Source of the DNA: Chloroflexota bacterium
GTDB lineage: Bacteria; Chloroflexota; UBA11872
Length of the DNA stretch: 64,000 nt
Direction of reading: 5' to 3'
Assembly: GCA_965243625.1 (NCBI GenBank)
Contig: CBDEVI010000002.1
Coordinates: forward strand, 2,339,475 to 2,403,474
Both the position numbers and the translations under genes were made by a program. How positions within the stretch are numbered: position 1 is the first letter of the stretch; each line of letters starts with the position of its first letter. Shown here piece after piece: positions 11,465-30,209 of this stretch. Below the pieces are notes generated by a model, which was not told the DNA's origin, did not search any database, and saw only the letters and a program-made list of their open reading frames with translations.

Positions 11465-11659
11465 TCACGCACTCCCCCGCTCCGGCCCCACGTTCCGCCA
11501 GGCCCACAGGCCCGCCGCGCCGAGGACGCCCCACCAGGGCTCCGGGATTGGGAGCTGGGCCGCCATCATCCCCACCGTGCCGCCCACGACCAGCAGAAAC
11601 CCCGCGGCCGCCGCGCTCGGCTTCGTCACCTCGCGCACCGCGTGCACCACCTGATTCAT
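11465..11659 (-). CDS. small two-helix membrane protein at the end of the lysis cassette (holin/spanin-like candidate)
   Basis: ORF 11465..11659(-), 64 aa. Hydrophobic segments AAAGFLLVVGGTVGMMAA and WWGVLGAAGLWAW. Lies 16 nt downstream of the endolysin gene. Confidence 0.5.
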   Translation of the reverse strand: MNQVVHAVREVTKPSAAAAGFLLVVGGTVGMMAAQLPIPEPWWGVLGAAGLWAWRNVGPERGSA

Positions 11660-11674
11660 CCTTGCTTTCCTTCC

Positions 11675-12658
11675 TTACCCCGCCTCGGGTTCGTGGTAGA
11701 ACCGCTCGGCGGTCATGACCCGGCGCCAGTCCTCCGGGCGGAAGGCGGCTTCGCCGGCCCGCCGCACCACCTGGATCACCTCGCCGAGGTGTCCCAGCGC
11801 CGCGAGCTTTCGGCTGTGATTGGCGTCGCGGTCCCGCCGCAGCGACTCGATCTCCGCCATTCGCGTCATGTCCAAGCCCTTCAGAATCTTGTCGGCGTAG
11901 CGGTAGCCCTGCGCACGGAATGCGCCGTCCGACCCGCGGCCGGTGTTGTAGTCCGCCAGCGCCTCGCGGTAGTCGCCATTTCGGTGATCCAGGTGCGCCG
12001 CCATCAGCCGCGCCGCGTAGTCCAGCGCCGCGAACGGGTCGAAGGTGCGCCCGCGCATGGCCGGGTGCCAGCGGGGGATGATCTGCGCCAGGCCCTCGGC
12101 CCCCGCGCGACTCACGGCCAGCGGGTCCCAGTTGCTCTCCACGGTGATCTGCCGCCGGAACACCTCGGGGGCGTAGCCGGCATCACGCGCGTACGCCTCC
12201 GCGTAGAGGCGCAGCGGGTCGACCCGCGAACCGCGAACGCGGAAGGTCGCCGGATCGATGGCGCCGTGGGGCGACGCGTCCAAGTGCAGGTGGTGCCCGG
12301 TGCTGTTTCCGGTCGAGTCGCACAGGCCGAGCGTCTGGCCGGCCGCGACGCGCTCCCCGACGCGAACCGTCGGCGGCTCGTCGAAGTGCAGCAGGCGCCA
12401 CAGCACGCCCGCGTCGTCGCGCAGCGCCACGGCGTTGCCGTAGGGAAACCCGTCCCGCACCGACGGCGCCCGCGTGCTCGGCCGGTCCGTCGTCCAGACC
12501 GCCAAGACCGTCCCCGCCGCCGGCGCTTTGACCGGGCGGCGGTAGACCGACTCCCGCTGCAACGCCAGGTCGATCCCGCCGTGGCGATAGCTTCCGCGGT
12601 CCAGGCCGAACACCGAGGTCACGCGAACGACGCCGTCGAGCGGCGGCAGATAGGCCAT
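11675..12658 (-). CDS. two-domain endolysin-like peptidoglycan hydrolase: M23 peptidase plus SLT lytic transglycosylase
   Basis: ORF 11675..12658(-). M23 motifs HGGIDL and GHHLHLD. SLT motifs ITVESNW, AEGLAQIIP and ADYNTG. Confidence 0.9.
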   Translation of the reverse strand: MAYLPPLDGVVRVTSVFGLDRGSYRHGGIDLALQRESVYRRPVKAPAAGTVLAVWTTDRPSTRAPSVRDGFPYGNAVALRDDAGVLWRLLHFDEPPTVRVGERVAAGQTLGLCDSTGNSTGHHLHLDASPHGAIDPATFRVRGSRVDPLRLYAEAYARDAGYAPEVFRRQITVESNWDPLAVSRAGAEGLAQIIPRWHPAMRGRTFDPFAALDYAARLMAAHLDHRNGDYREALADYNTGRGSDGAFRAQGYRYADKILKGLDMTRMAEIESLRRDRDANHSRKLAALGHLGEVIQVVRRAGEAAFRPEDWRRVMTAERFYHEPEAG

Positions 12659-12674
12659 CAGCTCGCCCCGCCCG

Positions 12675-12923
12675 TCATCGCAGCACCAGGGCCAACACGC
12701 CGCCGCCCACGCTCGTCAACGTCAGGCCCACCAGTCCATAGATCACGCTGCGAATGGGTCGAAACTCCGCCCGCGTCACGTAGGTCGCGCGCGCCTCGGC
12801 CTTGTGCGTTGCCATGTCCGCCCGCAGCTGCGCCACCTCGCGCAGGATCGACGCCGTGCGCTCGTCGATGCGCGCCAGGAGGCGGCCGTTGGCGTCAGGC
12901 GTCGGGCGTGCGCCGCTCGTCAC
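12675..12923 (-). CDS. holin-like small protein (N-terminal coiled segment, single C-terminal TM helix)
   Basis: ORF 12675..12923(-), 82 aa. C-terminus VIYGLVGLTLTSVGGGVLALVL. The GTG start overlaps the stop of the upstream hydrolase gene (GTGA). Confidence 0.6.
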   Translation of the reverse strand: MTSGARPTPDANGRLLARIDERTASILREVAQLRADMATHKAEARATYVTRAEFRPIRSVIYGLVGLTLTSVGGGVLALVLR

Positions 12924-13921
12924 GCCCAGATCCGTCGAAAGTCGGCGTCGGCCTCCGCCATCCGCCCCACGCCGTCCGCCAAGGCCTCATCGCGCCAATG
13001 GCCGTCGCCGTTGGCGTCCACGAACCAGGCCAGACCCTCGAGGCGTCGCCCAAACACGGCGCAGGCGTAGGCGAAGGCGTTCGCCAGCAGGCCCGCCGGA
13101 TAGGCCGCGGCGGACGGCGCATCGGTGCGCGCGTTGTATTCCGCGATGATCACCGGCTTGCGCGCCAGCCCGACGGCGCGCAGGGTGTCGTCCCACGTTT
13201 GCAAGACGTTGGATCCCCACCGCCGCCCCAACCGGTCGCGCGGGTCTCGCCACGGCTCGTGCCGTCCGTCGTGCGCGCGGCCATCCGGGCCGGTGCGCGC
13301 ATAGGCGTGCAGCGCCACGCCCTGGAAGCGCCGCGACCAGGCCGTTCGCGCCGCGTCCCGGCACCGCTCCCAAAGCTCGGCGGTATACGAGGCCCAGGGC
13401 GATGGCTCCACCGCGGCCTTGGGCCGTCCGCCGCGAGGGGCGAACGGCCCCGTGGGCGTGACGAAGAAGCGGCAGCGCGATGCGGCGTGGGTTCGCCAAA
13501 CCTGCAGGGCGTTCCACGGGTCGCTCGGCTCGTTGCCGGCGCCGTTGAACACCCGCGCCATCCAGGCGGGGCTCACGCTGGGATCCTCGGACTCGGAGCG
13601 CCGCCAGTTGGGCTCGTTGCCGAAGGTCACGTCGATGCCGCCGAAATCCGGCGCCAGCGCCTCCAGCCCGTGGAGATACGCGTCCAGCTCCGCCCCGGTC
13701 CGCGGCTGATCGACGCCGGCTCGGTACTTGACCTTGAGCAGGACCCGATGCCCGGCGTCGCGCAGCAGGCGGCAGCGGCTCGCCATTTCCCGCCAGTGGC
13801 GCCGCCGGTCATCCCCGGGATGGGTGTACACGTGCTCCACGAACAGCGTCGGCACGGGATAGCCCGGCGTCCGCGCCGGATTCCAGAAGTGCACACCGAG
13901 GAGCGGCGCGATCTGGGCCAT
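12920..13921 (-). CDS. clan GH-A (TIM-barrel) glycoside hydrolase-like protein
   Basis: ORF 12920..14035(-). Start set at MAQIAPLLG, whose ATG overlaps the fibre gene stop (ATGA). TFGNEPNW (acid/base NEP motif) and IIAEYN (candidate nucleophile). Confidence 0.65.
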   Translation of the reverse strand: MAQIAPLLGVHFWNPARTPGYPVPTLFVEHVYTHPGDDRRRHWREMASRCRLLRDAGHRVLLKVKYRAGVDQPRTGAELDAYLHGLEALAPDFGGIDVTFGNEPNWRRSESEDPSVSPAWMARVFNGAGNEPSDPWNALQVWRTHAASRCRFFVTPTGPFAPRGGRPKAAVEPSPWASYTAELWERCRDAARTAWSRRFQGVALHAYARTGPDGRAHDGRHEPWRDPRDRLGRRWGSNVLQTWDDTLRAVGLARKPVIIAEYNARTDAPSAAAYPAGLLANAFAYACAVFGRRLEGLAWFVDANGDGHWRDEALADGVGRMAEADADFRRIWA

Positions 13922-14598
13922 CAGGCCCGCGCTCCAATGGCGAGCCAGGCAAAGCCGTTCCACGTTTCGTTCGCGGCGTGGGCGACGTGAGCTTCCGCTG
14001 TAAACCCGGTGGTGCTGATATCGATCGCGAACCACCGGGTATGCAGGCTTTGGTCGCCGAACACGGTGACCGCGTCGTCGTTCGGCTCGGCGCCGCTGCC
14101 GGTGACCGTTCCCAGCGCCGTCACGAATACGATGGGCGCGCTGGAAAACGCCTGGGCGAACGTTACGTCTTTGGTCTGGCGGTTGGTGAGCTGGGTGGAG
14201 ACATAGCCCCAGCCCACCTCGGCGCGAAGGCTCGAGACGTTGGCGTCGTTCCGCCCAGCGCCGTCCTGGACGTTGGTCAGCGCGATGCCGCCGACATTGG
14301 GCGCCAGCTTTGCGGCCGTCACGGCCGCGTCGGCGAGCTTGTCCGCGGTCACCGCCGCGTCCGCCAGGGCCGCGGTGACCACCGCGCCGGGCGCAACCTT
14401 GGGGCTCGTGACGGCCCCGCCGGCGAGCGCGTCGCTGGCCAGGGGCGGTCCCTGGCCTGCCGTCCCGTCGTGTCGGTGCCCGTCGGCGGCATCGAAGGCC
14501 GCGTCGACCGCATCCGCGTTGGCATTCACGCCCCCCACGTCATAGCGCTCCGTGGGCAGCGGCTTGGTGAGCTGAAGATTCAGCGTGGTCGTTGGCAT
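13921..14598 (-). CDS. phage tail fibre-like protein
   Basis: ORF 13921..14655(-). Start at MPTTTLNLQLTKPLPTERYD, preceded by AAAGGAGGA. Fibre-type repeats (GAVTSPKVAPGAVVTAALADAAVTADKLADAAVTAAKLAP) and a beta-rich C-terminal domain. Confidence 0.7.
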   Translation of the reverse strand: MPTTTLNLQLTKPLPTERYDVGGVNANADAVDAAFDAADGHRHDGTAGQGPPLASDALAGGAVTSPKVAPGAVVTAALADAAVTADKLADAAVTAAKLAPNVGGIALTNVQDGAGRNDANVSSLRAEVGWGYVSTQLTNRQTKDVTFAQAFSSAPIVFVTALGTVTGSGAEPNDDAVTVFGDQSLHTRWFAIDISTTGFTAEAHVAHAANETWNGFAWLAIGARA

Positions 14599-14608: not shown

Positions 14609-16939
14609 TTAGAGCCGGGAGATCTGGCGGTGCGCATAGGCCGCCAGGTGGTCATGGCGATAGGTGGCGAGCCGCCGATGGCGACCGTGGGCGGCCGTCG
14701 GCCGGTACTCGGTCGCCGAGATGTGCATGGCCCACGCGAGCGGGCGTCCCGTCGCGCGGACTTCGGCCTCGCGCACCAGCACCTCCAGCGCCTCGCCGTC
14801 CGGCGCCGTCAGCACCACGGGGAGCTCCGAGGCCGCCGCGGCCATGAGCGCCCGCTTGAGGTCGCGCGCCGTCCGACGGTCCCGGCCTCCGTCTCGCAAC
14901 GAAAGCTGGTCCGCAAGCCGCACGCGGAAGTCAAAGACGCGCCGGAAGCCGGTGCGCGCCGCATAGGCCAGCGAGACGGCCCGGATCACCGGCGTCAGGC
15001 GGTCGCTGTATGACGTGAGGCGCAGGCGCAGATCGATCGAGGTCCCGGCCACCGCGGAGCCAAAGTCCACCCGCTGGCCCGAAGCGGTGGCGAACCGACC
15101 GAGCGGCGCATAGGCCCCGTGCCCATCCAGCCGGTAGGCGGCGTCGACAAAGGCGTTTGGCCCCAGCCGCGCGCCGTCGATGTTCAGGCCGAGGAACGCG
15201 GTGCGCCGGGCGGCGGGGCTGCCGTGGAAGCGCGACAGCCGCAGCTCGCCCGACGCGGCAAAGCGGCACCGCGGGTCGTGCAAGGGATTGGCGGTGTGCC
15301 GCGGCAGGATGATCACGCCGATGTCGCCGTCCAGCCCGAGATACAGCCGCGGGTTTGGCCCCGGAATGCCCGAGACCCACATATGGCGGCATTCGCGTCG
15401 GCCGAGGTCGGCCAGCGGATGCCAGGCGCCGCGCTCCGCGTCGTAGCACAGCAGATAGGTGACGCCCTGGTCGCTGCGGAGGGCGGCGTACAAGAAAAAG
15501 GCGTCGCCCGCGCAGGCGGTGATGCGGCCGCGAACCGGCGAGTCGTTGTCCGTCAGCGTCTCGGGCCCCACCAGCTCGAACGCGCCCGGCGCGAAGCGAT
15601 AGAGCCCCTCCTTCGATGGCAGCCACAACGCCCCGCGCCACACCGCGCCTCCCCGGCCGTCACTCCGACCGCGCAGTGCCGCCGGACGTGGCCACGACGC
15701 CTCGAACGCCGCCTCACCGGATGATCGAACGCGAAACAGCCCTTCGGTCTTGACCGCGTAGGGCGCGTCGCCCAGCGACACAAGCGCTGTCACGGTTTGA
15801 CCCGGGCCGCCAGCCGGCTCGCCGGACGTCCACGTCGCGGCGCCGCCGCCGTCCACCGAGCGCGAAATCCGGGGAACGCCCACTTCCGACGACGAGCGCA
15901 ACAGCGCATCGCCGACCACGAGGAACCGGTCGGCCTTGCGGGGCTGGTGCACGGCCATGGCGTGCAGCCGCGTCCTGCCGTCCAGCGTCGCGGTCGCCGA
16001 CAGGCGCAGCCAGAAGGCTTGGATGCCCTCGATGCGTGAGGGGCGCCACGCGACGGGCTCCGTGAACTCACCCGCGCCGGCGCGCCCCAGCGTGGCGGAC
16101 TCGACGATCGACCGGTCGACCCAATCACTGACGGGCTCCCACGCAGCGCCCGTCCAGAACTCGGCCCTGAGCGTTGCGGCGCGCCGGTTGATGCGCTCGC
16201 GCGGGTCCAGGCGCACGCGGTCGAACGGTGCGTCGGATCCGAGGAGCAGCCAGGCGCCGCCCGCGGCCAAGCCGCTCAGGCGAACCTCGGCCGACTCCGT
16301 CTGATCGGTGTAGGTCACGCCGCCGTCAGTGGTCACAAGCACGGCGGTCGGCTTCGCCTGCACGCCCGGATGGGGCGTCCACGCGTCGCCGTCGAACGTC
16401 CAATACGGGCGGTCACCGGGGCCGCCGCCGACGGCAACGAACGCGTGAGGCGCCGCCGCCGCGCCCTGGAAGACGGCCGCCGAAGTCGGCGTGACGCCGT
16501 CGGCGAACCGGTGCGCCAGCGTCCAGCGGGCGCCGTCGGTCGATTGGTAGACCGCCGATCCGATCAGCGCGTACAGCACGCCGCCCAGCGCGAAGTGGCC
16601 GCGCACCGTGCCGGAGGCGCTGGTCGGGGCCACGGCCAGGGCCGGCGGCAGCATGATCTGGTTGGGAAAACGCGCGTCGACGAAGCCGTGGGCGTACTGC
16701 CGCCCGCCCTCCGCCGGCGCCGTGCCCGCGCCGTAGCCGCCCGTGAGGTCGCCGCTGGTCCAGGCCGCCTCATGCTCGGAGGGAAACTGGGCGTAGGCCC
16801 GGGCCGGCCCCGAGATCGGCGGCGGCAGCGACTCGAGGCGTCGCTCGCGCCAGGCCAAGCCGCCGTCGTCGGCCAGCATCAAGCCCGTCCCGTGCAGCAC
16901 GCAGTCATAGGGGAAGGGGGATCGCCGCGATTCAGGCAT
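14609..16939 (-). CDS. large phage tail/baseplate-like protein with BNR/Asp-box (beta-propeller) repeats
   Basis: ORF 14609..16939(-), 776 aa. Asp-box-like motifs YQSTDGARWT, VTTDGGVTYT and SRSVDGGGATWT. Size and position are comparable to podoviral tail tubular protein B. Confidence 0.7.
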   Translation of the reverse strand: MPESRRSPFPYDCVLHGTGLMLADDGGLAWRERRLESLPPPISGPARAYAQFPSEHEAAWTSGDLTGGYGAGTAPAEGGRQYAHGFVDARFPNQIMLPPALAVAPTSASGTVRGHFALGGVLYALIGSAVYQSTDGARWTLAHRFADGVTPTSAAVFQGAAAAPHAFVAVGGGPGDRPYWTFDGDAWTPHPGVQAKPTAVLVTTDGGVTYTDQTESAEVRLSGLAAGGAWLLLGSDAPFDRVRLDPRERINRRAATLRAEFWTGAAWEPVSDWVDRSIVESATLGRAGAGEFTEPVAWRPSRIEGIQAFWLRLSATATLDGRTRLHAMAVHQPRKADRFLVVGDALLRSSSEVGVPRISRSVDGGGAATWTSGEPAGGPGQTVTALVSLGDAPYAVKTEGLFRVRSSGEAAFEASWPRPAALRGRSDGRGGAVWRGALWLPSKEGLYRFAPGAFELVGPETLTDNDSPVRGRITACAGDAFFLYAALRSDQGVTYLLCYDAERGAWHPLADLGRRECRHMWVSGIPGPNPRLYLGLDGDIGVIILPRHTANPLHDPRCRFAASGELRLSRFHGSPAARRTAFLGLNIDGARLGPNAFVDAAYRLDGHGAYAPLGRFATASGQRVDFGSAVAGTSIDLRLRLTSYSDRLTPVIRAVSLAYAARTGFRRVFDFRVRLADQLSLRDGGRDRRTARDLKRALMAAAASELPVVLTAPDGEALEVLVREAEVRATGRPLAWAMHISATEYRPTAAHGRHRRLATYRHDHLAAYAHRQISRL

Positions 16940-19390: not shown

Positions 19391-19419
19391 ACTCTACGTT
19401 ACTATAGTAACGTATGCAA
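19391..19419 (-). promoter_or_regulatory. promoter-like site with an 18-bp perfect palindrome in the spacer (capsid/tail/lysis block)
   Basis: Minus strand reads TTGCAT-ACGTTACTATAGTAACG-TAGAGT. The palindrome ACGTTACTATAGTAACGT spans 19396-19413. It is an AT-rich island in about 70% GC DNA, with a near-identical site at 30180-30209. Confidence 0.45.
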
Positions 19420-23415: not shown

Positions 23416-23449
23416 ATAACCCCTGGCGCGGCCCAAACTCCCCCGTCGT

Positions 23450-24997
23450 TCAGCCGCTGCGACGGCGCCCGCCGGCGCCGCGGGTCTCGATCGCCCAGGC
23501 AAGCCCGAGAACCACCAGCAGTCCCACCGCCAGCACCGCGATCGTCCATGGACCCAGCCGGTGCACCACGAAGAGATCGGGCCCTATCAGTCCGTCGACC
23601 CACTGGCGGGCCAGCCGCAGGTGGGCGCCAATCAGTGAGAAGTGGGGATTCCACTCGATCTGCTCCGGGCGCGCCCCGTGGTCCCAGAGATTGCGCCAGC
23701 CCGACTGGTAGTCGAACAGCACGCCCAGCACCGACAGGCCGGTCGACCACGCGGCGAGGCCAAGCGTCGCCAGGCGCATGCCCAGCGTCGCCGACGCCGA
23801 CTGCATCGCCAGACCCACGCCGAGCGCCAGGAACGGCGTGACGGTGGTGAGATATCGAGGTCCCCAGGAGACGCCGCCGAACCAGTCGTCGAATGACCCA
23901 TAGCCGATGACCGCCAGCACGGTCAGCGCCAGCATGACCAGCCAGACCGGCCGACGCGACGTCGCGCCGAGGATCCCCCACAGCCCCACGGCGGCGACGG
24001 GCATGAAGACCAGCAGCCCAAAGCTGGGACTGGCCAGCACGCCGAAGATGCCGATGTAGGCGCGGTCCGTCTGCCAGAGGATCGACGCCGTCCGATAGCC
24101 CACATCGAGGAAGTCGCCGCTTCGATAGAGGTTCCAGAGCCCGATGCCCGGGACGGCCACGACGGCCCACACCCCGGCAAACGCCAGCCCGCGGGTCAGA
24201 CCGACGCGCGACAACCGTCTCTCGCTCAGCAGGCTCAACACACCGACCGCGGGCGCCAGGACCACGAACTCCGGACGCGTCAGCGCGGCAAGTCCTGTGA
24301 GGCCGCCGGCAACGGCCCAGACTCCGGCTCCTGAGCGCGAGCCGGTGACCGCGACAAACGCCAACACGCTGAACAGCGCGGCGAGCGGGATGTTGGCGAG
24401 CCCCTGGGCATAGACCCAGAGGGGGCTGGCAAACGCCAGCACCAGCGCCGCCGCGGCGGCGGTGCGGGGTCGCAGGCCAAGATTGCGCCCCAGCAGAAAC
24501 GTTGCGCCCACCAACAGGGCGGCGATGGTCGGCCCATAGAGCAACGCCGCCACCGGCCGCACCGCGCTCGGCTGGGGAAACGTCGACGACGGGGGCGGTG
24601 GCCGCGAGTTGGTCCAGCGCGCAAGGAGCTCGGCCGGCGACATCCCCACCCACGACAGCAGGCCGTAGCGACTGGTGGTCCGGTCCATCGACGGGTGCCG
24701 CAGCGTCAGCAGCTGCTCGCGAGGAAACGGCTGCTCGCCGGACAAGTCGGGGCTGCCGGATTCGACCAGCGCCCGGGCCGAGGCGTAGTTGGTGATCTCG
24801 TCCACGCTGTAGGCATGCGCGCCCGAGGAAAGCGCATAGAACAAGCCCGCCAGCAGCACCAGCACCGCCGCGCGAGCCACGTCAAGTCGCGGCGAGCGCG
24901 GCTCCATAGCGCCACCGCGGGGGCTCGCGTCAACGGGCGGCCGATTCAAGCTCCGCCATCGCGCCGCCAGCGTGACCGTGCGCCCGGAGACCAACAT
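23450..24997 (-). CDS. GT-C fold membrane glycosyltransferase-like protein (ArnT/PMT-like)
   Basis: ORF 23450..24997(-). More than 10 hydrophobic helices and an acidic first-loop motif (YSVDEITNY). Met 31 (24907) is an alternative start. Family assignment is tentative. Confidence 0.55.
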   Translation of the reverse strand: MLVSGRTVTLAARWRSLNRPPVDASPRGGAMEPRSPRLDVARAAVLVLLAGLFYALSSGAHAYSVDEITNYASARALVESGSPDLSGEQPFPREQLLTLRHPSMDRTTSRYGLLSWVGMSPAELLARWTNSRPPPPSSTFPQPSAVRPVAALLYGPTIAALLVGATFLLGRNLGLRPRTAAAAALVLAFASPLWVYAQGLANIPLAALFSVLAFVAVTGSRSGAGVWAVAGGLTGLAALTRPEFVVLAPAVGVLSLLSERRLSRVGLTRGLAFAGVWAVVAVPGIGLWNLYRSGDFLDVGYRTASILWQTDRAYIGIFGVLASPSFGLLVFMPVAAVGLWGILGATSRRPVWLVMLALTVLAVIGYGSFDDWFGGVSWGPRYLTTVTPFLALGVGLAMQSASATLGMRLATLGLAAWSTGLSVLGVLFDYQSGWRNLWDHGARPEQIEWNPHFSLIGAHLRLARQWVDGLIGPDLFVVHRLGPWTIAVLAVGLLVVLGLAWAIETRGAGGRRRSG

Positions 24998-25311
24998 GCC
25001 GCGCGGAATCGCTCGCGCAAACGGGAGTCGAATCGAATTGTCGCCGCAACCGACGGTGCGACTGAGTATGGCCGCGCCCGGTCCGCGCTCGCCAGCGCGA
25101 CGCGGAGACGTCCACCGATCCCCTGCGCTCCGGCTCGCGGACCGGTTTCACCCGCGCGCCCGAGCAGCCTCCGCAGATGCCCCGCGATCGACGGCCCCAG
25201 TTCGGCAGCCGATCTAATGGAATATCACATTGCCCCAATGGATTATTCCCTTGACAGCCGCGAAACTTCGAATCATCCTTGACCAGAAGGGGCTGATGTC
25301 TTGGTGGATGC

Positions 25312-26472
25312 ATGGATCTCTCGCTAACCGCGGATGTCGGCGATATCGACACCGATTCGCTATTCCGGCGCCTCTATGAGGTCCGCACGCTGATTCCCGG
25401 CGGCTATGAGCCCTATTTTCGCGAGCGCGCGCGCTATCTGAACACGCTCACCTCGGCGAAGGTGGAGGGCAACCCCCTCGGCTACGGCGAGGCCCGGGTC
25501 GTGCTGTCGGGCGAGGCCGAACCGGTCCGACCCGAGGAGCGCGAGTTGACGAACCTGTGGGGCTCGCATGAGCTGATGGCGCAGCTGGCGGCGGACCCGA
25601 CGGTGGGAATCGACCAGGGGCTGCTGCGCGCCATGAACTCGCTGATCCTGGAGGGCTTGCCGGAGGAGATGTCAGGGCGCCGCGGGCAGTACCGCACGGG
25701 ACCCAGTCTGATCGAGGATCCGGAGTCGCGCGAGATCCGCTACCGGCCGCCGCCGCCGGCTTGGGTCCCGGACCTGATGGGCCGGCTGGTCGCCCACATC
25801 CAGCGCTGGACGGCCGAGGAAAGCTATCCGGCGCCGATCATCGCGGCGCTGGCGCACGCCGGCCTGGTATCAATCCATCCGTTCGAGGAGGGCAACGGCC
25901 GCACGGCCCGTCTCCTGGCCGACATGATCCTGCACCAGGCGGGGTGGTCGGCCGAGGGCACACTGGCGCTCAATGTGGTGATCTGGCGCGAACGCGATCG
26001 CTACCACCAGGCACTCCGCGACACGCACGGTCTGGACTTCCAGTCGGAGGTCGACGGGACGCCGTTCGCCGCATTCCACACCGACGCTCTGAGCACGGCC
26101 GCGACGATGCTTGAACACTTCATCGAGGTTTTCAACGGGCGTCAGGACGCTTGGCGGGACGAGTTCGGCGCGCGTCTGAACGAACGGCAGACGCTGGGCC
26201 TGACGTACATCATCGACACGGGCTCCGTGTCCAGTTCCATGTACGCGCGCCTGATCGGTGCGTCCGCCTCCACCGCCTACGCCGACCTGACGCACCTGGT
26301 GTCCTGTGGCGCCGCCGTGCGATCGGGCAAGGGACGGAATACGCGCTACGCGGTGCATCCGGACCTCTGGGCCCAGCTGATCGCCGCCGCCGAGCGGTCG
26401 GGTTGGGCGGAGGCTCAGAGGAGCAGAGGCCGCCGACGCGACTCAGGCGGAAGCGACGGCTCGGACCGGTAG
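25312..26472 (+). CDS. Fic family protein (AMPylase-type) with C-terminal winged-helix
   Basis: ORF 25312..26472(+). Canonical HPFEEGNGRTARLL Fic motif. Confidence 0.9.
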   Translation: MDLSLTADVGDIDTDSLFRRLYEVRTLIPGGYEPYFRERARYLNTLTSAKVEGNPLGYGEARVVLSGEAEPVRPEERELTNLWGSHELMAQLAADPTVGIDQGLLRAMNSLILEGLPEEMSGRRGQYRTGPSLIEDPESREIRYRPPPPAWVPDLMGRLVAHIQRWTAEESYPAPIIAALAHAGLVSIHPFEEGNGRTARLLADMILHQAGWSAEGTLALNVVIWRERDRYHQALRDTHGLDFQSEVDGTPFAAFHTDALSTAATMLEHFIEVFNGRQDAWRDEFGARLNERQTLGLTYIIDTGSVSSSMYARLIGASASTAYADLTHLVSCGAAVRSGKGRNTRYAVHPDLWAQLIAAAERSGWAEAQRSRGRRRDSGGSDGSDR

Positions 26473-26483
26473 CCCGACGGCCC

Positions 26484-26840
26484 TCACTCGGTAGCGTCGG
26501 CGTCGGCCTGGCGCCGGGCCTGGGTCTCCTGATAGTTGCGATAGTTCGTCTGCAGTGCTCGGATCAGCTCGAGCACGCGCTCCGGGGTCAGGGCCAGGCG
26601 GGCCACCGGATGCACCGGAATCGTGCCGCGTTCCCGCAGCTTGGCGGCTGCGGCCATGACATCCGCGTCGGACCCAATGAGCAGCGGCGGCGACACCGCG
26701 CCGACGTTGAGATAGAACTCGTTGGACTGCGCGTCGTGCTGCACGGCAAACCGGTTCACGAAGTGGACCGACAGATCCTCGAAGCCCGACCAGTCGAGCT
26801 TGAGCGAGAGCTCGTTCGTCTCACGTGGGTTATTCGCCAT
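26484..26840 (-). CDS. small hypothetical protein, possibly DUF3467-like
   Basis: ORF 26484..26897(-). Start set at MANNPRETNEL (GAGGGG RBS). VHFVNRFAVQHDAQSNEFYLNVGAVSPP resembles DUF3467 from memory only. It is the last gene of the packaging block. Confidence 0.5.
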   Translation of the reverse strand: MANNPRETNELSLKLDWSGFEDLSVHFVNRFAVQHDAQSNEFYLNVGAVSPPLLIGSDADVMAAAAKLRERGTIPVHPVARLALTPERVLELIRALQTNYRNYQETQARRQADADATE

Positions 26841-26923: not shown

Positions 26924-28195
26924 CTATCGCACCAGCGCGAAGGGCCGGTACGACCGCGCGGGCCGCGCGACGGGGCCGAAGCGGTCGTAGAGCCAGTAGG
27001 CCAGCGCCTTGATGGCGTGGTTGTCGCGGTCGATCGGCAGCTCCGAAATCGGGCGGTCGTCCCGCGCTTCGTGGTAGCGGTAGCTGCCGAACTCCTGCAT
27101 CAGCGCGCGGCAGGCCGGCGCCAGGGTGAGCCGCGGCTCGCCGCCGGCCGGGTCACGCAGAAACGTGTGGAGCCGGTCGATGCCGTCCTGGATCCGCACC
27201 GGGCGGGACCGCAGGCGCAGCCCGGCCAGGGCCTGCCAGATCTCAATCTGGCTGGCGCTGGCGTGGTGCTGACGTCCGGCGACGTCGATCACCCCGCCGC
27301 TCACGCGCGGCCACCACCAGCGCCGCCGGCACTCGGCGATGATTTCGGCGGCCACCATGCGGCGGTGGTAGACCTCGTCGATCACCCGCGCCACGCCGGC
27401 GGCCTCGGTGACGGCGAGCACGGCATACGCGCCCGCGTAGCCCGGGTCGATGGCCAGCTCAACGGTTTCGACGGCGGCCGGGTCGACCGCGGCCACGTGC
27501 CGCGCCGGCTCGAACTCGGGGAATACGAGGGTCGCGGGCGGGCAGGGCACGCCGCCGAACCGCTCCCGAAACACCGCCGCCGGATAGGTGGCTTCGAGCG
27601 CCTCGATCTCGGCGTCGGCGCGCCCGCCCGGAAACAGCGCCCGGTTGGACCAGGTGGGGATGGAGAACGACGCCGCGCCGTCGGCGTTCACCACCTGCCA
27701 GGCGCTGAAGTGATCGGCGTACCAACCGCGCGAGCCCTCGAAGGTGCCGCTCAGCCAGAGCCATCCCCGGCGCTCCGCCACGCGGCCCCGCAGCCGCAAA
27801 TAGACCTCATAGGGCAGCTGGGCCGCCTCGCAGCCAAGGATTCCGTCGGGCGCCTCGCCGGCCAGCCGCGCCGGATCGCGCGCCGACTTGGTCACGATCC
27901 GCGCCCCGGTGCGCAGCGTCAGCCGGCACTGCTCCGAGTTGGGAAAGCTCAGGCTGTCAACGGCGCCGATGGCCCCGAACGCCTCCGCCAGGTAGCGGAA
28001 CTCGGGCCGACAGAGCTCGTAGTCCGGGCCCACCAGCCAGTAGAGCCGGCCTTCCAGGCAGCGGCCGAACAGCTCCATGGCGGCGCTGCGGCTCTTGCCG
28101 GCGCGCTCGCCGCCGGCGATCAGGCGAATGCGCGCGGGCGAGTCGTGCGCCTGCCGCTGCTCGGGACTCGGCGCGTACCCGACCCGCCGCCACAG
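26924..28195 (-). CDS. phage terminase large subunit (TerL); N-terminal Walker A segment lacks a canonical start codon
   Basis: ORF 26924..28078(-) begins at the first ATG. The same frame stays open upstream to a TGA and encodes ...EALWRRVGYAPSPEQRQAHDSPARIRLIAGGERAGKSRSAA-MELF, with Walker A at about 28091-28120. Nuclease motifs AIDPGYAGAY and DRDNHAIKALAYW. The only candidate starts are CTG (28195), ATT and ATC. Confidence 0.75.
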   Translation of the reverse strand: MWRRVGYAPSPEQRQAHDSPARIRLIAGGERAGKSRSAAMELFGRCLEGRLYWLVGPDYELCRPEFRYLAEAFGAIGAVDSLSFPNSEQCRLTLRTGARIVTKSARDPARLAGEAPDGILGCEAAQLPYEVYLRLRGRVAERRGWLWLSGTFEGSRGWYADHFSAWQVVNADGAASFSIPTWSNRALFPGGRADAEIEALEATYPAAVFRERFGGVPCPPATLVFPEFEPARHVAAVDPAAVETVELAIDPGYAGAYAVLAVTEAAGVARVIDEVYHRRMVAAEIIAECRRRWWWPRVSGGVIDVAGRQHHASASQIEIWQALAGLRLRSRPVRIQDGIDRLHTFLRDPAGGEPRLTLAPACRALMQEFGSYRYHEARDDRPISELPIDRDNHAIKALAYWLYDRFGPVARPARSYRPFALVR

Positions 28196-28199
28196 CGCC

Positions 28200-28436
28200 T
28201 CACGCGCTGTGCGCGAGGCGGGCGCGAATCTCCTCCAGCAGGTTCACCAGCGCATCCTCGGACGCCTCGGCGGAGCGGTCGAACGCGTACTGCATCACCA
28301 ATTCGGTGGCCCAGCGCTCGCCCTTGCGCGCCTTCGCGATGACGGCGTCACAGATCTCGTCCGTGTGCTCCTCGGCCAGCGTGCGGAATCGAGCCGGAAA
28401 GTCGTGCGGCGACGGCCGCCGTCTCGCCGGCGTCAC
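28200..28436 (-). CDS. small terminase-like / DNA-binding protein candidate (about 78 aa)
   Basis: Part of ORF 28200..28499(-). The GTG at 28436 overlaps the portal stop (GTGA). FPARFRTLAEEHTDEICDAVIAKARKGERWATELVMQYAFDRS is helical. Position between portal and TerL. Confidence 0.5.
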   Translation of the reverse strand: MTPARRRPSPHDFPARFRTLAEEHTDEICDAVIAKARKGERWATELVMQYAFDRSAEASEDALVNLLEEIRARLAHSA

Positions 28437-30118
28437 GATGCAGCCGCCGGAGCCACTCGCTCCACGTTCGCCGTTTCCGCGCCGCCATCGCGACGCCACA
28501 GCTCGCGCCTGACCTCCGGATCGTCGAGCATCTCCTCGCGCAGGATCTCCGCCTGCATCTCCGCCGCGTTGGCGATGCCCAGCTTCTCCTGCATGGCCCA
28601 GCGCCGCGACGCCAGCTTGGCCGCCACCAGGTTGGCGGCGTAGGTGCCCTGGGCAATCTCATCCGCCGGGGCCAAGGCCTCCAGCTTGGCGCGCACCGCG
28701 TAGTAGCCGTTGATGTCGCGGGGCGACAGGCCCAGCCACGCGGCGTCCTCGTCGCCATAGACGTAGACCGTCTCCCGCACCCGGTGCTCGACCAGCCGCC
28801 AGGCCAGCTGCACGATGCGCTCGAGCGCCTGCTCGGCGTGTCGCGTGATCTGGTTGAACGACAGCCGCGCCGCGTTGATCAGCTGGTTCAGGTAGTAGCC
28901 GCTGGTGTTGCCGTCGGGCGCGATGCCGAAGAGCACCGTGGGCACGCCCGCCTGGTCGATCATCGAGCGCGTGAGGGCGATCAGCTCGTCCAGATCGGGC
29001 GGCGTGCCCGACCACTGCAGCAGGCTCAGGTCCTCGCCGGGAAACAGCGGCAGAATCTCGCCCGGCCGAAACTCGATCGGCGGCGGACGGCCGTCATCGC
29101 CCAACGCGCCGTCGCCGCCGGCGAAGCCGGTGAGCTTGGGCGTCGGATAGGCGTAGAGGTGCACCGCGTTCTGCTTCATGGTGAGCAGCCGGTCGAGCAG
29201 CGGCACCAGGTACTCCACCGACGCCAGCATCGACTCGCCGGCCTTGGCCGGGTCGCGGCTGGGCGATTGGTTGCCATGCGCCATCACGTAGGGCACCGCG
29301 CCGTAGGCGTGGCGGCCGCGCCGCACCAGGTGGCCGTCCACCAGGTAGGCGAAGTGCTCGCGGTCCCAATACTCGACCACGCGCACGCTGCCGGCGGCGG
29401 CCGCGGGACCCTCGCTCGACGCCGCGCTCCCCGCCGGCGCCAGGCGGCCCGAGCGGCGGTCTTCGACCAGGCCGTAGCGCCGCATCATGAGCCACTTCGG
29501 GCGCTCGGCGATCTCCAGGCAGGCCTCGATCCCATCGTCGCCAATGAGCGGATAGAAGGTGAGCACGTCCACGTCGCGCCAGGCCAGCGGGAACGGCGCG
29601 GATCGTTTGAAGCGGGTCGAGCGCTCGTTGAAGTCGGCGTCGGTTTCGGGTCCGCCGTCGCCGCGGCGCGGATAGCCCGTCCACCGCTCGGGCATATAGA
29701 CCAGCTTCATCACGCCGGTGCCGTCCGCCACCAGCGCGTCCACGAACATCCCGAAGATGTCGCGCCCGGCGTCGTTCTTCATGCGCCGCAGGGCGGCGGC
29801 CGTCCAACGCTCGCGGCGCGAGGCGTTCGCCCGGCTCTCCGGCGTCTGGTCCGCCGGCGGCACGCTGATTGTCGGGTGGTTGGCGGTCAGGCTGCCCACG
29901 ACGCGCTTGAGCTGCTCCCGCGCCAGCGGCGTCCGCACCTCGCGCGTGGTGGCCCGGTAGGCCGCCGGAATGTCCACCGGCTCTTCCATGAACCGCAACC
30001 GCCGCAGCCGCTCGATGCGGGCGTTGCGCCCGCCGAACTCCGTCAGCAGGTGCTGCTCCAGCTCTTGAACATAGGACTCGGACGGTGGGGGCAACGCGTC
30101 GGGGCGAAGCTCGGACAA
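28433..30118 (-). CDS. phage portal protein candidate (561 aa)
   Basis: ORF 28433..30118(-). TTG start with a GGGAGG RBS. Size, acidic C-terminus and direct coupling to the terminase genes support the call; I cannot quote a family-specific motif. Confidence 0.6.
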   Translation of the reverse strand: MSELRPDALPPPSESYVQELEQHLLTEFGGRNARIERLRRLRFMEEPVDIPAAYRATTREVRTPLAREQLKRVVGSLTANHPTISVPPADQTPESRANASRRERWTAAALRRMKNDAGRDIFGMFVDALVADGTGVMKLVYMPERWTGYPRRGDGGPETDADFNERSTRFKRSAPFPLAWRDVDVLTFYPLIGDDGIEACLEIAERPKWLMMRRYGLVEDRRSGRLAPAGSAASSEGPAAAAGSVRVVEYWDREHFAYLVDGHLVRRGRHAYGAVPYVMAHGNQSPSRDPAKAGESMLASVEYLVPLLDRLLTMKQNAVHLYAYPTPKLTGFAGGDGALGDDGRPPPIEFRPGEILPLFPGEDLSLLQWSGTPPDLDELIALTRSMIDQAGVPTVLFGIAPDGNTSGYYLNQLINAARLSFNQITRHAEQALERIVQLAWRLVEHRVRETVYVYGDEDAAWLGLSPRDINGYYAVRAKLEALAPADEIAQGTYAANLVAAKLASRRWAMQEKLGIANAAEMQAEILREEMLDDPEVRRELWRRDGGAETANVERVAPAAAS

Positions 30119-30179
30119 AGGGGCCTCCCGGTGTCATTGGCGCCGTGCGCGTAGCGCGGGCCGTCGTGCTACAGCCCTA

Positions 30180-30209
30180 ATCCTAGAGCGTTACAATAGT
30201 AACTTCCAA
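30180..30209 (-). promoter_or_regulatory. promoter-like site with palindrome in the spacer (portal/terminase block)
   Basis: Minus strand reads TTGGAA-GTTACTATTGTAACGCTC-TAGGAT, about 60 nt upstream of the portal start. The core CGTTACAATAGTAAC (30189-30203) matches 19397-19411 at 14/15 positions. Confidence 0.45.

What the first reader, a model, noticed from the sequence alone, without database searches (positions are those of the whole stretch)
11465..30209. Minimal podovirus-like head-tail-lysis gene set with no lysogeny or replication genes: candidate domesticated particle (GTA-like) or decaying prophage
All on the minus strand, in transcription order.
- Packaging block: portal candidate (561 aa), small TerS-like protein, TerL, and a 118-aa protein.
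- About 7 kb of non-viral genes follows.
- Second block: capsid candidate (284 aa), 75-aa and 268-aa proteins, a 776-aa Asp-box tail protein, a fibre, a GH-A hydrolase, a holin-like protein, an M23+SLT endolysin and a 2-TM protein.
- Genes inside each block are coupled by ATGA/GTGA overlaps or gaps under 15 nt.
- The viral DNA totals only about 11.7 kb, which is gene-transfer-agent size and below autonomous tailed phages.
- I see no integrase, repressor/Cro, replication, scaffold, protease, tape-measure or internal-core genes, and no obvious att repeats at 11400-11465 versus 30210-30284.
- Flanking genes are ordinary chromosomal genes.
- Most reading frames look intact (TerL start excepted), which fits maintenance rather than free decay.
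Basis: partly seen in the sequence, partly recalled or inferred. Interest (0 to 1): 0.8.

Follow-up and report, generated by a model that had tools for sequence, protein, structure and literature searches.

The report
Domesticated phage-particle genes in Chloroflexota
This is a small set of virus-derived head, tail, DNA-packaging and cell-wall-cutting genes that at least 33 species of uncultured Chloroflexota have kept intact at the same chromosomal site, which makes it a strong but untested candidate for a new gene-transfer-agent-like particle system.

Summary
They form a two-block, minus-strand, phage-derived locus: portal, a 78-aa protein and TerL; then about 7 kb of host-type genes; then capsid, a 75-aa protein, an adaptor-like protein, a nozzle-like tail protein, a fibre and lysis genes. 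There is no integrase, repressor, replication gene, tRNA or att repeat.

The same locus, with the same split around a sulfatase gene, lies between the same chromosomal neighbours in 33 species-representative Chloroflexota genomes. Every core gene is intact in 10-35 orthologues. Against close species, dN/dS is 0.05-0.11 for portal, TerL and capsid, lower than for flanking host genes (0.14-0.32). Synonymous divergence matches that of the flanks. No close relative was found in phage or viral-contig collections. An outgroup copy shows real decay.

In the window's subclade both blocks carry the same conserved dyad operator. The capsid block also has a conserved, structured 370-450-nt leader RNA with no Rfam match.

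Verdict: a vertically inherited, selectively maintained particle locus, GTA-like by genomic criteria. Particle production, DNA content and transfer are untested. The podovirus-type tail is only weakly supported.

The parts
30176..30205 (-). Promoter-like region of the packaging block: TTGGAA, 18 nt, TAGGAT. The dyad AAGTTACTATTGTAACGC (30188-30205) lies in the spacer, about 70 nt upstream of the portal start.
   Evidence: This is the only second match in 64 kb to the capsid-block dyad, with 0.01 expected by chance. It is conserved in the portal upstream regions of L001, L013, L016 and L027. The hexamers are my reading; the consensus scan did not call them.
28433..30118 (-). Portal protein, 561 aa, TTG start.
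   Evidence: phrog_156 portal, E 0.002. Orthologues hit Pfam SPP1_portal (4.7e-6), P22_portal and lambda portal. 49 homologues were found, all in this Chloroflexota group. dN/dS is 0.06-0.085. The AlphaFold model is poor, pLDDT 48.
28200..28436 (-). 78-aa protein between portal and TerL. It may be a small terminase or a DNA-binding partner; its function is not shown.
   Evidence: Its GTG overlaps the portal stop. Homologues occupy the same position in L003 and L004 (36-48% identity). The only family hit is a sub-threshold HTH_16 match, E 0.099.
26924..28195 (-). Large terminase. The frame is open back to 28243. The Walker A motif GGERAGKS lies upstream of the first ATG (28078). The likely start is the conserved CTG at 28195-28193, 4 nt after the stop of the 78-aa gene.
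   Evidence: phrog_2 terminase large subunit, 2.8e-24. Walker A was located. No ATG, GTG or TTG lies in frame in window, L001/L002, L014, L015, L016 or L027, whereas relatives have TTG or GTG about 7-10 codons upstream. dN/dS of 0.075-0.11 includes the N-terminal part.
26484..26840 (-). 118-aa protein of unknown function. It is accessory, not part of the conserved core.
   Evidence: No family match. Present in L012, L014, L016, L017 and L027, absent from L001, L013 and L015.
19420..26483 (.). Host-type genes lying between the two blocks: Fic (25312-26472 +), membrane proteins (23450-24997 -, 21991-23415 +), sulfatase (20339-21793 +), PIN toxin (19920-20318 +) and FitA-like RHH antitoxin (19681-19923 +).
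   Evidence: Pfam. A sulfatase on the opposite strand lies between the blocks in nearly every locus that reaches that far; L021 has none detected.
19391..19419 (-). Promoter-like region of the capsid block: TTGCAT, 17 nt, TAGAGT. The perfect dyad ACGTTACT-AT-AGTAACGT lies in the spacer.
   Evidence: Unique in the window. Conserved in all 10 species of the window's subclade. L015 carries a symmetric change in both arms. The other subclade has TTGCGN, 17 nt, TACAAT at the aligned place in 21 species. The consensus scan calls only a plus-strand site here.
19020..19390 (-). Conserved, non-coding, GC-rich 5' leader of the capsid operon (about 370 nt). It is predicted to be highly structured, and an anti-SD CTCCC pairs with the SD GGAGAG.
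   Evidence: Indels are not multiples of three. Mean pairwise identity is 0.90, against 0.70-0.83 at four-fold sites of neighbouring genes. RNAalifold gives -211 kcal/mol. The 400-450-nt leader of the other subclade has 17 pairs with compensatory changes, against 9.4+-2.0 in shuffles. No Rfam match even at E<=1.
18165..19019 (-). Major capsid protein, 284 aa, HK97-type, of the 'N4-gp56 / Phage_capsid_4' family.
   Evidence: Pfam PF25209 2.7e-9 and PF05065 1.4e-5; phrog_267 7e-12. Identity is 83-98% across 33 species. dN/dS is 0.05-0.10. The nearest cultured phages are Pelagibacter podophages at 34-35% and phage DSL-LC06 at 37%.
17760..17987 (-). 75-aa protein that follows the capsid gene in the 30 loci scored (decoration or head-completion protein?). 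Function unknown.
   Evidence: Homologues of 75-121 aa occupy the same position. dN/dS is 0-0.08 in six of seven close comparisons and 0.27 for L015. No family match.
16940..17746 (-). 268-aa protein, adaptor-like by position. In the window it is an in-frame shortened form (about 110 internal residues missing) of a 407-aa protein in most relatives.
   Evidence: L004's 407-aa protein aligns as residues 1-154 and 266-403 in one frame. The gene is intact in 33 loci. A family member directly precedes the nozzle homologue in the unrelated contig L046, E 4e-62. No PDB or PHROG match.
14609..16939 (-). 776-aa beta-rich tail protein, nozzle-like.
   Evidence: The profile hits chain M of 9EFK, an 818-aa chain present in six copies in the portal-tail complex of Legionella podophage LME-1, E 1.1e-4. 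I take it to be the hexameric nozzle described in PMC12407071. Foldseek ranks 9efk_M second, but TM is 0.17 on a poor model. The family has 3619 members, and distant ones hit PHROGs annotated as major tail protein or tail sheath. Full length in 33 loci.
13921..14598 (-). Tail fibre, 225 aa. The N-terminal ~70 residues are conserved as an anchor and the C-terminal part is variable.
   Evidence: phrog_892 2.6e-8, phrog_28766 and phrog_1396, all tail fibre. The N-terminus is 62% identical to L004's 350-aa fibre and the rest is unalignable. Identity to close species is only 62-89%, where the capsid is 94-98%.
12920..13921 (-). Found only in the window's subclade.
   Evidence: No Pfam, PHROG or PDB match. 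Present in L011-L017 and L027. dN/dS is 0.15-0.30.
12675..12923 (-). 82-aa protein with one C-terminal transmembrane helix (holin-like or membrane-anchored lysis factor).
   Evidence: Hydropathy places a TM helix at residues 60-82. In L042 a region 71% identical to L004's 76-aa protein lies directly before M23/SLT; L004's 76-aa protein sits one 34-codon ORF upstream of it. No similarity of the window's 82-aa protein to it was detected. dN/dS is 0.19-0.30.
11675..12658 (-). M23 peptidase + SLT lytic transglycosylase, 327 aa. It is either an endolysin or a virion-borne wall-piercing enzyme.
   Evidence: Pfam PF01551 1.6e-13 and PF01464 7.4e-12. The best PHROG is 'internal virion protein with endolysin domain', 3.6e-17. 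The HxxxD, HxH and E-S motifs are present. dN/dS is 0.13-0.26.
11465..11659 (-). 64-aa hydrophobic protein with 1-2 TM helices. Lineage-specific.
   Evidence: Hydropathy. The only match elsewhere is a partial one in L014.
10404..11399 (+). GFO/IDH/MocA oxidoreductase, a host-type gene inserted inside the end of the locus.
   Evidence: Pfam. Present here and in L014 and L016; absent at this place in L011-L013, L015, L017 and L027.
9964..10224 (-). About 81-86-aa protein with two TM helices (holin-like).
   Evidence: 61-62% identical to the 84-aa protein that directly follows M23/SLT in L004. The same gene follows M23/SLT in L011-L017, L027 and L042. Two TM helices.

Best explanation
The locus is the remnant of a tailed phage's structural, packaging and lysis modules. 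It became fixed in the chromosome of an ancestor of a clade of uncultured Chloroflexota and has been kept working by selection ever since. In other words it is a domesticated, host-inherited particle-making system, most likely working like a gene transfer agent (GTA).

Proposed mechanism (shown: gene content, conservation and regulatory sequences; all steps below inferred):
1. A host signal relieves a regulator bound at the dyad GTTAC-N4-GTAAC, which sits in the promoter region of both blocks.
2. The long structured leader, which pairs an anti-SD with the capsid ribosome-binding site, adds a second check on capsid-operon expression.
3. Capsid and portal assemble heads.
4. TerL, with the 78-aa partner, fills them with whatever DNA is available.
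5. A short tail made of adaptor-like, nozzle-like and fibre proteins is attached.
6. The membrane proteins and the M23/SLT enzyme open the cell, or the recipient's wall.

The locus has no replication, integration or immunity genes, and it is interrupted by host genes. It therefore cannot propagate as a virus. Any benefit must go to the host lineage.
For: Distribution and position:
- 33 species-representative genomes carry the locus, including complete 2.7-3.8 Mb chromosomes.
- Metagenome contigs add further copies.
- The order is the same everywhere: [GH127, GT2], portal, small protein, TerL, [sulfatase and other host genes], capsid, small protein, adaptor-like, nozzle-like, fibre..., [DEAD helicase or Sua5].

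Integrity and selection:
- No internal stop occurs in 10-35 orthologues of each core gene.
- Against close species (dS 0.17-0.36), dN/dS is 0.06-0.085 for portal, 0.075-0.11 for TerL and 0.05-0.10 for capsid.
- The neighbouring sulfatase, Fic, GH127, GT2 and DEAD genes give 0.14-0.32.
- Pairwise dN and dS of most element genes track those of the sulfatase embedded between the blocks. Spearman is about 0.8-0.9 for capsid, nozzle, adaptor and portal, but only 0.34-0.5 for TerL dS and the fibre. dS ratios are about 1, or 0.65 for the capsid.

Insertions without damage:
- Insertions differ between lineages: a type ISP restriction enzyme between portal and TerL in L003, an oxidoreductase near the end in the window.
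- The phage-derived genes stay intact around them.

Missing phage functions:
- No integrase, repressor, replication gene, tRNA or att repeat was found.

No free phage relative:
- Portal and nozzle have no match in 50,697 phage records.
- Portal, capsid and nozzle have no relatives among IMG/VR contigs.

Shared regulation (window's subclade):
- The same dyad lies in front of both blocks.
- The leader is more conserved than synonymous sites and shows covariation.

Internal contrast:
- An outgroup copy, L043, shows what decay looks like: a truncated, inverted TerL, an IS element inside the adaptor gene, and frameshifts in the nozzle gene.
Against: Nothing here shows that particles are made, that they hold host DNA, or that DNA is transferred.

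Several parts that a working podovirus-type particle normally needs were not identified:
- Scaffold. A 251-264-aa candidate lies between portal and capsid only in the outgroup.
- Head-completion proteins.
- Internal or ejection proteins.

The largest subclade (capsid 84-85% identical) has no M23/SLT or holin-like gene after the fibre within the DNA fetched. Release would therefore need genes elsewhere.

In the window's own subclade TerL has no canonical start codon.

The adaptor and small-terminase roles rest on position only. The nozzle role rests on one weak sequence match plus a low-confidence model.

Head capacity is unknown. Related capsids belong to 30-43 kb phages, so the particle might be able to hold the whole locus.

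All genomes are metagenome assemblies. Purifying selection shows that the genes are used, not what for.
Confidence: 0.6

Rival explanations
1. The locus is a domesticated particle with a job other than gene transfer. Examples would be a PBSX-like killer particle or bacteriocin aimed at competitors, programmed lysis that releases DNA or cell contents into a biofilm or host tissue, or a delivery vehicle. The genes are kept by selection, but packaged DNA is incidental.
For: The conservation, synteny and selection evidence is the same as for the main explanation. The fibre is the fastest-changing gene: it keeps a conserved anchor and has a replaceable tip, which fits target recognition under diversifying pressure. 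An M23/SLT wall-degrading enzyme is part of the set.
Against: Portal and TerL, the DNA-packaging parts, are among the most constrained genes (dN/dS 0.06-0.11), so filling the head with DNA matters. PBSX-type particles do package DNA, however, so this does not exclude the rival. Sequence alone cannot separate it from gene transfer.
Confidence: 0.22
2. The locus is an ordinary defective prophage in slow decay with no function. It looks conserved only because the genomes are closely related.
For: Lysogeny and replication genes are absent, host genes interrupt the locus, TerL lacks a canonical start in the window, and the adaptor-like gene has lost about 110 codons. The outgroup copy L043 is clearly decaying.
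Against: The genomes are not close. dS between subclades is 0.5-1.1, and the flanking GH127 is only 49-51% identical. Even so, none of the 10-35 orthologues of each core gene has a stop codon. dN/dS is 0.05-0.11 for the head and packaging genes, below that of the neighbouring host genes. The missing TerL start is conserved across several species while the protein stays under strong constraint.
Confidence: 0.04
3. The locus is a still-mobile element: a satellite (a capsid-forming PICI-like element) or a temperate phage whose replication and integration genes lie outside the fetched DNA or are supplied by a helper.
For: It encodes its own capsid, portal and terminase, as capsid-forming satellites do. 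The capsid family also occurs in free phages.
Against: The chromosomal neighbours are the same on both sides across the clade (GH127/GT2 and DEAD/Sua5). Synonymous divergence equals that of the flanks. There is no integrase, primase, att repeat or tRNA. Host genes in opposite orientation sit inside it. It carries tail genes, which capsid-forming satellites lack. No copies were found in viral-contig collections.
Confidence: 0.06
4. The genes are retained because prophage remnants protect against related phages, for example structural proteins or a terminase that poison an incoming phage's assembly. In that case no complete particle needs to be built.
For: Cryptic prophage genes can provide such protection (general knowledge). 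Defence-type genes accumulate in and near the locus: a type ISP restriction enzyme, PIN toxin-antitoxin pairs and Fic.
Against: This would not explain joint conservation of a complete, ordered set (portal, terminase, capsid, adaptor-like, nozzle-like, fibre) with shared regulatory sequences in 33 species. Interference usually needs one or two genes.
Confidence: 0.05

Closest known systems
RcGTA-type gene transfer agents of Alphaproteobacteria (Rhodobacter capsulatus, Caulobacter crescentus)
   Same: A chromosomal head-tail-packaging gene set without replication or lysogeny genes. It is inherited vertically over long periods and is under purifying selection. Parts are scattered among host genes, and lysis genes can lie apart from the structural genes. 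The reduced capsid dS may reflect codon-usage selection of the kind reported for GTA genes (title of PMC9765227; paper not read). The literature also reports promoter-level and anti-termination control (10.1101/2023.11.12.565669, listed).
   Different: The phylum is different and the viral ancestor is different and unrelated. There is no tape measure, tail tube or siphovirus-type tail here; instead the tail is short, with adaptor-, nozzle- and fibre-like genes. The capsid belongs to the N4-gp56/Phage_capsid_4 family. No GafA/GafYZ-type regulator was identified. Particle production and DNA transfer are not demonstrated.
Other independent GTAs (Bartonella BaGTA, Brachyspira VSH-1, Desulfovibrio Dd1, Methanococcus VTA) and PBSX-like defective prophages of Bacillus
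   Same: These are independent domestications of tailed phages that package host DNA and cannot propagate. PBSX shows that such particles can serve for killing rather than transfer (my general knowledge; not tested here).
   Different: No sequence relationship was seen or tested beyond family scans. The tail type differs. None of these is reported from Chloroflexota in the library searched.
T7-like short-tail machinery, as solved for the Legionella podophage LME-1 (PDB 9EFK; PMC12407071)
   Same: The gene order matches: portal ... capsid, small protein, adaptor, nozzle, fibre. The 776-aa family gives a weak profile match to chain M of the LME-1 portal-tail complex, which I take to be the nozzle (E 1.1e-4), and podovirus tail chains appear among the Foldseek matches. 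The M23/SLT protein resembles internal virion proteins with a lytic domain (phrog_342).
   Different: No significant match to T7 gp8, gp11 or gp12. No internal core proteins comparable to gp14, gp15 and gp16 were found. The structure models are too poor to confirm the folds. LME-1 and T7 are autonomous phages.
Capsid-forming phage satellites (cf-PICIs)
   Same: A small element that encodes its own capsid, portal and terminase.
   Different: Satellites have an integrase, replication genes and att sites, move between sites and lack tails. Here none of those genes or sites is present, the position is fixed and tail genes are present.

Membership tests
Gene transfer agent (functional definition) | Phage-like particles are produced by the cell | not testable with these tools
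   Only gene content is available. The hosts are uncultured metagenome-assembled genomes.
Gene transfer agent (functional definition) | Particles package essentially random host DNA and transfer it to recipients | not testable with these tools
   This needs sequencing of DNase-protected particle DNA and a transfer assay.
Gene transfer agent (functional definition) | Head capacity is smaller than the DNA needed to encode the particle | not testable with these tools
   The T number is unknown. The locus spans about 20 kb in the window and more in L003. Related capsids occur in 30-43 kb phages.
Gene transfer agent (genomic hallmarks) | Structural and packaging genes without replication, integration or immunity genes | tested here: met
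   Pfam scans of about 40 window proteins covering most of the 64 kb, including the element and its flanks. No tRNA and no att-like repeat.
Gene transfer agent (genomic hallmarks) | Fixed chromosomal position and vertical inheritance across a host clade | tested here: met
   33 species genomes with the same neighbours and order. Element dS is about equal to flank dS, and pairwise distances correlate at 0.8-0.9 for most genes. A genome-wide species tree was not available.
Gene transfer agent (genomic hallmarks) | Purifying selection on intact reading frames | tested here: met
   No internal stops. dN/dS is 0.05-0.11 for portal, TerL and capsid and 0.13-0.32 for the tail and lysis genes.
Gene transfer agent (genomic hallmarks) | Expression under host control | tested here: inconclusive
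   A shared dyad lies in front of both blocks and the capsid block has a structured leader. The regulator is unknown. The adjacent RHH antitoxin is degenerate in 3 of 10 species.
RcGTA-like family (homology) | Siphovirus-type head-tail cluster with tape measure and tail tube | tested here: not met
   No tape-measure, tube or sheath genes lie between the capsid and lysis genes. The gene set and families differ.
T7-like podovirus tail | Dodecameric adaptor (gp11-like) encoded after the capsid gene | tested here: inconclusive
   The 268/407-aa family has no PDB or PHROG match. It always precedes the nozzle-like gene, also in the unrelated contig L046.
T7-like podovirus tail | Hexameric beta-propeller nozzle (gp12-like) | tested here: inconclusive
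   Profile match to chain M of 9EFK, the LME-1 portal-tail complex (taken to be the nozzle), E 1.1e-4. Foldseek match with TM only 0.17 on a pLDDT 46 model. No hit to T7 gp12.
T7-like podovirus tail | Internal core or ejection proteins (gp14/15/16-like) | tested here: not met
   No large internal virion proteins were found. Only the 327-aa M23/SLT protein resembles the lytic domain of such proteins.
Functional temperate prophage | Integrase, att sites, repressor and replication module | tested here: not met
Capsid-forming phage satellite (cf-PICI) | Integrase and replication genes, variable insertion sites, no tail genes | tested here: not met
   No integrase or primase, a fixed site, and tail genes present.

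The most novel reading that the evidence does not exclude
This is an independent, previously undescribed gene-transfer-agent lineage. It derives from a short-tailed phage, has been fixed for a long time in a clade of (apparently sponge-associated) Chloroflexota, and is switched on through a shared operator plus a new structured leader RNA in front of the capsid operon.
Probability: 0.4. Interest if true: 0.85.

Novelty: new variant of a known kind. Interest (0 to 1): 0.72.

Why it matters
All well-studied gene transfer agents come from a handful of lineages, and most of them have long tails. A short-tailed one in Chloroflexota would be a new, independent case of bacteria taming a virus.

It would suggest a route for gene exchange within an uncultured symbiont clade. 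The 33 aligned natural variants would also form a ready data set for asking which phage parts are indispensable once a virus is domesticated.

The locus also brings two concrete, testable regulatory elements: a dyad operator shared by both blocks, and a 370-450-nt structured leader with no Rfam family.

Tried and rejected
- An exact-sequence look-up of the 776-aa protein found no source contig.
- AlphaFold2 models of the portal (pLDDT 48) and the 776-aa protein (pLDDT 46) were too poor. The Foldseek output is dominated by generic beta-propellers at TM about 0.17, so I do not use it as evidence of fold.
- Sequence profiles against PDB found nothing for the portal, the adaptor-like family or the 333-aa protein.
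- hhalign of the portal profile against an annotated phage portal was not significant.
- Profiles of portal, adaptor-like and nozzle-like families found nothing in the phage-like contig L008, phage DSL-LC06 or T7. Only the capsid is shared.
- Rfam gave no match in the window or in the leader.
- I considered that the capsid ORF really starts at 19367 (400 aa, possibly a scaffold-like N-terminal domain). Rejected: relatives differ there by 1-2-nt indels.
- I considered that the divergent RHH antitoxin (19681-19923) is the regulator that binds the dyad. Unlikely as the conserved regulator: the toxin-antitoxin pair is degenerate in L012, L013 and L015 while the dyad is kept.
- A search for att-like repeats at the borders found nothing of 11 nt or longer.
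- The consensus promoter scan does not call my minus-strand hexamers. They are conserved but match the E. coli consensus weakly.

Full report
WHAT IS IN THE WINDOW

The window is about 70% G+C, so I called genes by third-position GC.

The upstream block holds:
- A 561-aa portal (28433-30118). phrog_156 gives E 0.002. Orthologues hit Pfam SPP1_portal at 4.7e-6, plus P22_portal and lambda portal.
- A 78-aa protein (28200-28436) whose GTG overlaps the portal stop.
- TerL (phrog_2, 2.8e-24).
- A 118-aa protein.

About 7 kb of host-type genes follows: Fic, two membrane proteins, a sulfatase and a FitA-like/PIN toxin-antitoxin pair.

The downstream block holds:
- The major capsid protein (18165-19019; Pfam Phage_capsid_4 2.7e-9, phrog_267 7e-12).
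- A 75-aa protein, a 268-aa protein and a 776-aa protein.
- A fibre (PHROG tail-fibre hits).
- A 333-aa protein, and an 82-aa protein with a C-terminal membrane helix.
- An M23+SLT enzyme and a 64-aa hydrophobic protein.

The other window proteins I scanned against Pfam (about 40 in all, not every ORF) look like ordinary chromosomal genes: RelA/SpoT, RecJ, IlvD, Sua5, CofD and others. There is no integrase, repressor or replication gene, no tRNA, and no shared word of 11 nt or more between the two borders.

CORRECTIONS TO THE OBSERVATION

- The fibre starts at 14598.
- The 'GH-A hydrolase' has no detectable family.
- The 118-aa gene is not conserved.
- The apparent 400-codon capsid ORF is non-coding upstream of 19019.
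The two-helix membrane protein that directly follows M23/SLT in relatives sits at 9964-10224 in the window, displaced by an inserted GFO/IDH/MocA oxidoreductase gene.

THE DECISIVE EVIDENCE IS COMPARATIVE

Portal homologues (49) and close capsid homologues all come from Chloroflexota assemblies, several on contigs of 3 Mb or more. A scan of one genome per species found the capsid in 33 species-representative Chloroflexota genomes, including complete 2.7-3.8 Mb chromosomes. Some isolate names look like sponge-metagenome bins; I did not verify this.

Mapping all window genes and those of a divergent relative onto these loci (contexts) gives one conserved architecture:

[GH127, GT2] - portal - small protein - TerL - [4-8 kb of host genes, including a sulfatase on the opposite strand in nearly every locus that reaches that far] - capsid - small protein - 407-aa protein - ~790-aa protein - fibre - (lysis genes) - [DEAD helicase or Sua5]

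Lineage-specific insertions occur, for example a type ISP restriction enzyme between portal and TerL in L003 and the oxidoreductase in the window. They leave the phage-derived genes intact.

INTEGRITY AND SELECTION

None of the 10-35 orthologues extracted for each core gene has an internal stop.

Nei-Gojobori estimates against close species (dS 0.17-0.36):

| Gene | dN/dS |
|---|---|
| portal | 0.06-0.085 |
| TerL | 0.075-0.11 |
| capsid | 0.05-0.10 |
| 75-aa protein | 0-0.08 (0.27 for L015) |
| tail and lysis genes | 0.13-0.32 |
| adjacent sulfatase, Fic, GH127, GT2, DEAD | 0.14-0.32 |

Synonymous divergence of element genes equals that of the flanks. Pairwise dN and dS of capsid, nozzle, adaptor and portal correlate with those of the sulfatase embedded between the blocks (Spearman about 0.8-0.9). 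The correlation is weaker (0.34-0.5) for TerL dS and the fibre. The dS ratio is about 1, or 0.65 for the capsid, which may reflect stronger codon bias.

It is incompatible with free decay. It also argues against a mobile element that comes and goes.

AN OUTGROUP GIVES A USEFUL CONTRAST

A more distant lineage (capsid 63-65%, portal about 51% identical) carries an unsplit, roughly 11-kb version between host genes, again without an integrase. Its order is portal, a 251-264-aa scaffold-like protein, capsid..., a 253-aa protein, a 648-aa protein, fibre..., M23/SLT.

One such copy, L043, is visibly decaying. Its TerL is truncated and inverted, an IS element sits inside the adaptor-like gene, and the nozzle-like gene has frameshifts. 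No copy in the main clade looks like that.

NO CLOSE FREE PHAGE WAS FOUND

- Portal and the 776-aa protein have no tblastn match in 50,697 phage records.
- The capsid's best matches there are Pelagibacter podophages (34-35%) and a siphovirus (37%).
- Pattern scans of IMG/VR with portal, capsid and 776-aa alignments returned no relatives.
- A 43-kb phage-like contig with a 44%-identical capsid shares only the capsid.

HOW GOOD IS 'PODOVIRUS-LIKE'?

There is no tape-measure, tube or sheath gene. The order capsid, small protein, 268/407-aa protein, ~780-aa protein, fibre matches T7-like phages such as Legionella phage LME-1 (PMC12407071).

The 776-aa family has a weak profile match to chain M of the LME-1 portal-tail complex (9EFK; 818 aa, six copies), which I take to be the hexameric nozzle (E 1.1e-4). 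It belongs to a large family of 3619 representatives, whose distant members hit PHROGs annotated as tail proteins. A member of the 407-aa family directly precedes the nozzle-family gene in an unrelated contig.

The AlphaFold models are poor, however, and the Foldseek list is generic. The adaptor-like family has no known relative. No internal core proteins were found. I therefore treat the short tail as likely, not shown.

The M23/SLT protein could be an endolysin or a virion-borne wall-piercing enzyme; its best PHROG is 'internal virion protein with endolysin domain'. The window's 268-aa protein is an in-frame shortened form of the 407-aa protein.

TerL START

In window, L001/L002, L014, L015, L016 and L027 there is no ATG, GTG or TTG in frame upstream of the Walker A motif. 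Relatives have TTG or GTG about 7-10 codons upstream. A conserved CTG (28195-28193) lies 4 nt after the stop of the 78-aa gene.

The N-terminal part is conserved and under strong constraint. This is therefore a conserved non-canonical or coupled start, not a broken gene.

In another subclade TerL is separated from the portal and carries an N-terminal helix-turn-helix extension.

REGULATION (NEW RELATIVE TO THE FINDING)

About 400 nt upstream of the capsid ATG lies a conserved promoter-like sequence with a perfect dyad, ACGTTACT-AT-AGTAACGT (19396-19413). The only other match in the 64-kb window is about 70 nt upstream of the portal start (30188-30205), with 0.01 expected by chance.

Both sites are conserved in the window's subclade. 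One species has a symmetric change in both arms. The two blocks thus appear to share an operator.

Between promoter and capsid start lies a 370-nt non-coding leader:
- It is more conserved (0.90 identity) than four-fold sites of neighbouring genes (0.70-0.83).
- It is predicted to fold stably, with the ribosome-binding site paired to an anti-SD.

In the other subclade a TTGCGN, 17 nt, TACAAT promoter is conserved in 21 species, followed by a 400-450-nt leader. On 16 of these leaders:
- 17 predicted pairs show compensatory changes, against 9.4+-2.0 in shuffles (1 of 500 reach it).
- 43 cells show a change on both sides, against 14.5+-3.2 (0 of 500).
- 96.8% of cells are paired, against 38-50% when partners are slid.

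The usual caveat applies: the structure was derived from the same alignment. No Rfam family matches.

The divergent RHH antitoxin next to the dyad is a tempting regulator. It is degenerate in three species that keep the dyad.

INTERPRETATION

The data support a phage-derived particle locus that has been inherited vertically and kept functional, which is GTA-like by genomic hallmarks.

I put about 0.8-0.85 on 'domesticated and functional'. That splits as 0.6 for the GTA-like account given as the best explanation and about 0.2 for another particle function, such as PBSX-like killing or programmed lysis. The remainder goes to a mobile element, a defence-only role or plain decay.

Open problems:
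- No scaffold or ejection proteins were recognised.
- The largest subclade has no lysis genes next to the fibre.
- Head capacity is unknown.
- Everything rests on metagenome assemblies.

Full-text searches found no description of a GTA or similar element in Chloroflexota.

Noticed in passing
window 19020-19390 (-); L020:9595-10003 and equivalents: A 370-450-nt conserved, structured 5' leader lies in front of the capsid gene and matches no Rfam family. It is more conserved than synonymous sites, shows compensatory base-pair changes in the larger subclade, and its anti-SD pairs with the ribosome-binding site. It is a candidate new cis-regulatory RNA.
   Followed up: partly
window 28193-28243 (-): TerL has no canonical start codon in window, L001/L002, L014, L015, L016 and L027, yet it is under strong purifying selection. 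A conserved CTG lies 4 nt after the upstream gene's stop, which suggests coupled or non-canonical initiation.
   Followed up: partly
window 19681-20318 (+): A FitA-like RHH antitoxin and a PIN toxin are transcribed divergently from the capsid promoter region. The plus-strand promoter-like site found by the scan overlaps the dyad. The pair is degenerate in L012, L013 and L015.
   Followed up: partly
L003:13799-18423 and L003:19908-21410: In one subclade a pentapeptide-repeat gene and a 1129-aa type ISP restriction-modification enzyme are inserted between portal and TerL. TerL there has gained an N-terminal HTH_23/HTH_Tnp_1-like extension, making it 500 aa.
   Followed up: partly
window 25312-26472 (+): The Fic-domain protein inside the split matches a phage protein family of unknown function (phrog_5978, 1.1e-32). 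It is conserved at this place in the window's subclade.
   Followed up: no
L001:17439-20278; L010:4252-7028; L011:1670-4398; L012:3131-6130: The 474-aa membrane-protein gene inside the split is tandemly duplicated in several close relatives (copies 65-90% identical to the window's gene).
   Followed up: no
L014:19299-19613: A second fragment of the M23/SLT gene (residues 213-317, 74% identical) lies beyond the oxidoreductase gene in L014. This hints at a duplication or rearrangement at this end of the locus.
   Followed up: no
L043:15214-16424 and neighbours: The outgroup copy carries an IS element (rve transposase) inside the adaptor-like gene, a truncated inverted TerL, and two tandem paralogous genes of 275 and 335 aa upstream of the portal.
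   Followed up: partly
window 18165-19019 vs neighbours: Synonymous divergence of the capsid gene is only about 0.62-0.65 of that of the neighbouring genes, which suggests strong codon-usage selection and therefore high expression.
   Followed up: no
L008:11101 and L009:11101: The same dyad core, GTTACAATTGTAAC, occurs just after the capsid gene of the distantly related 43-kb phage-like contig. This may be chance.
   Followed up: no
window 45215-46914 (+): Two adjacent 283-aa proteins with good coding signal have no Pfam match.
   Followed up: no
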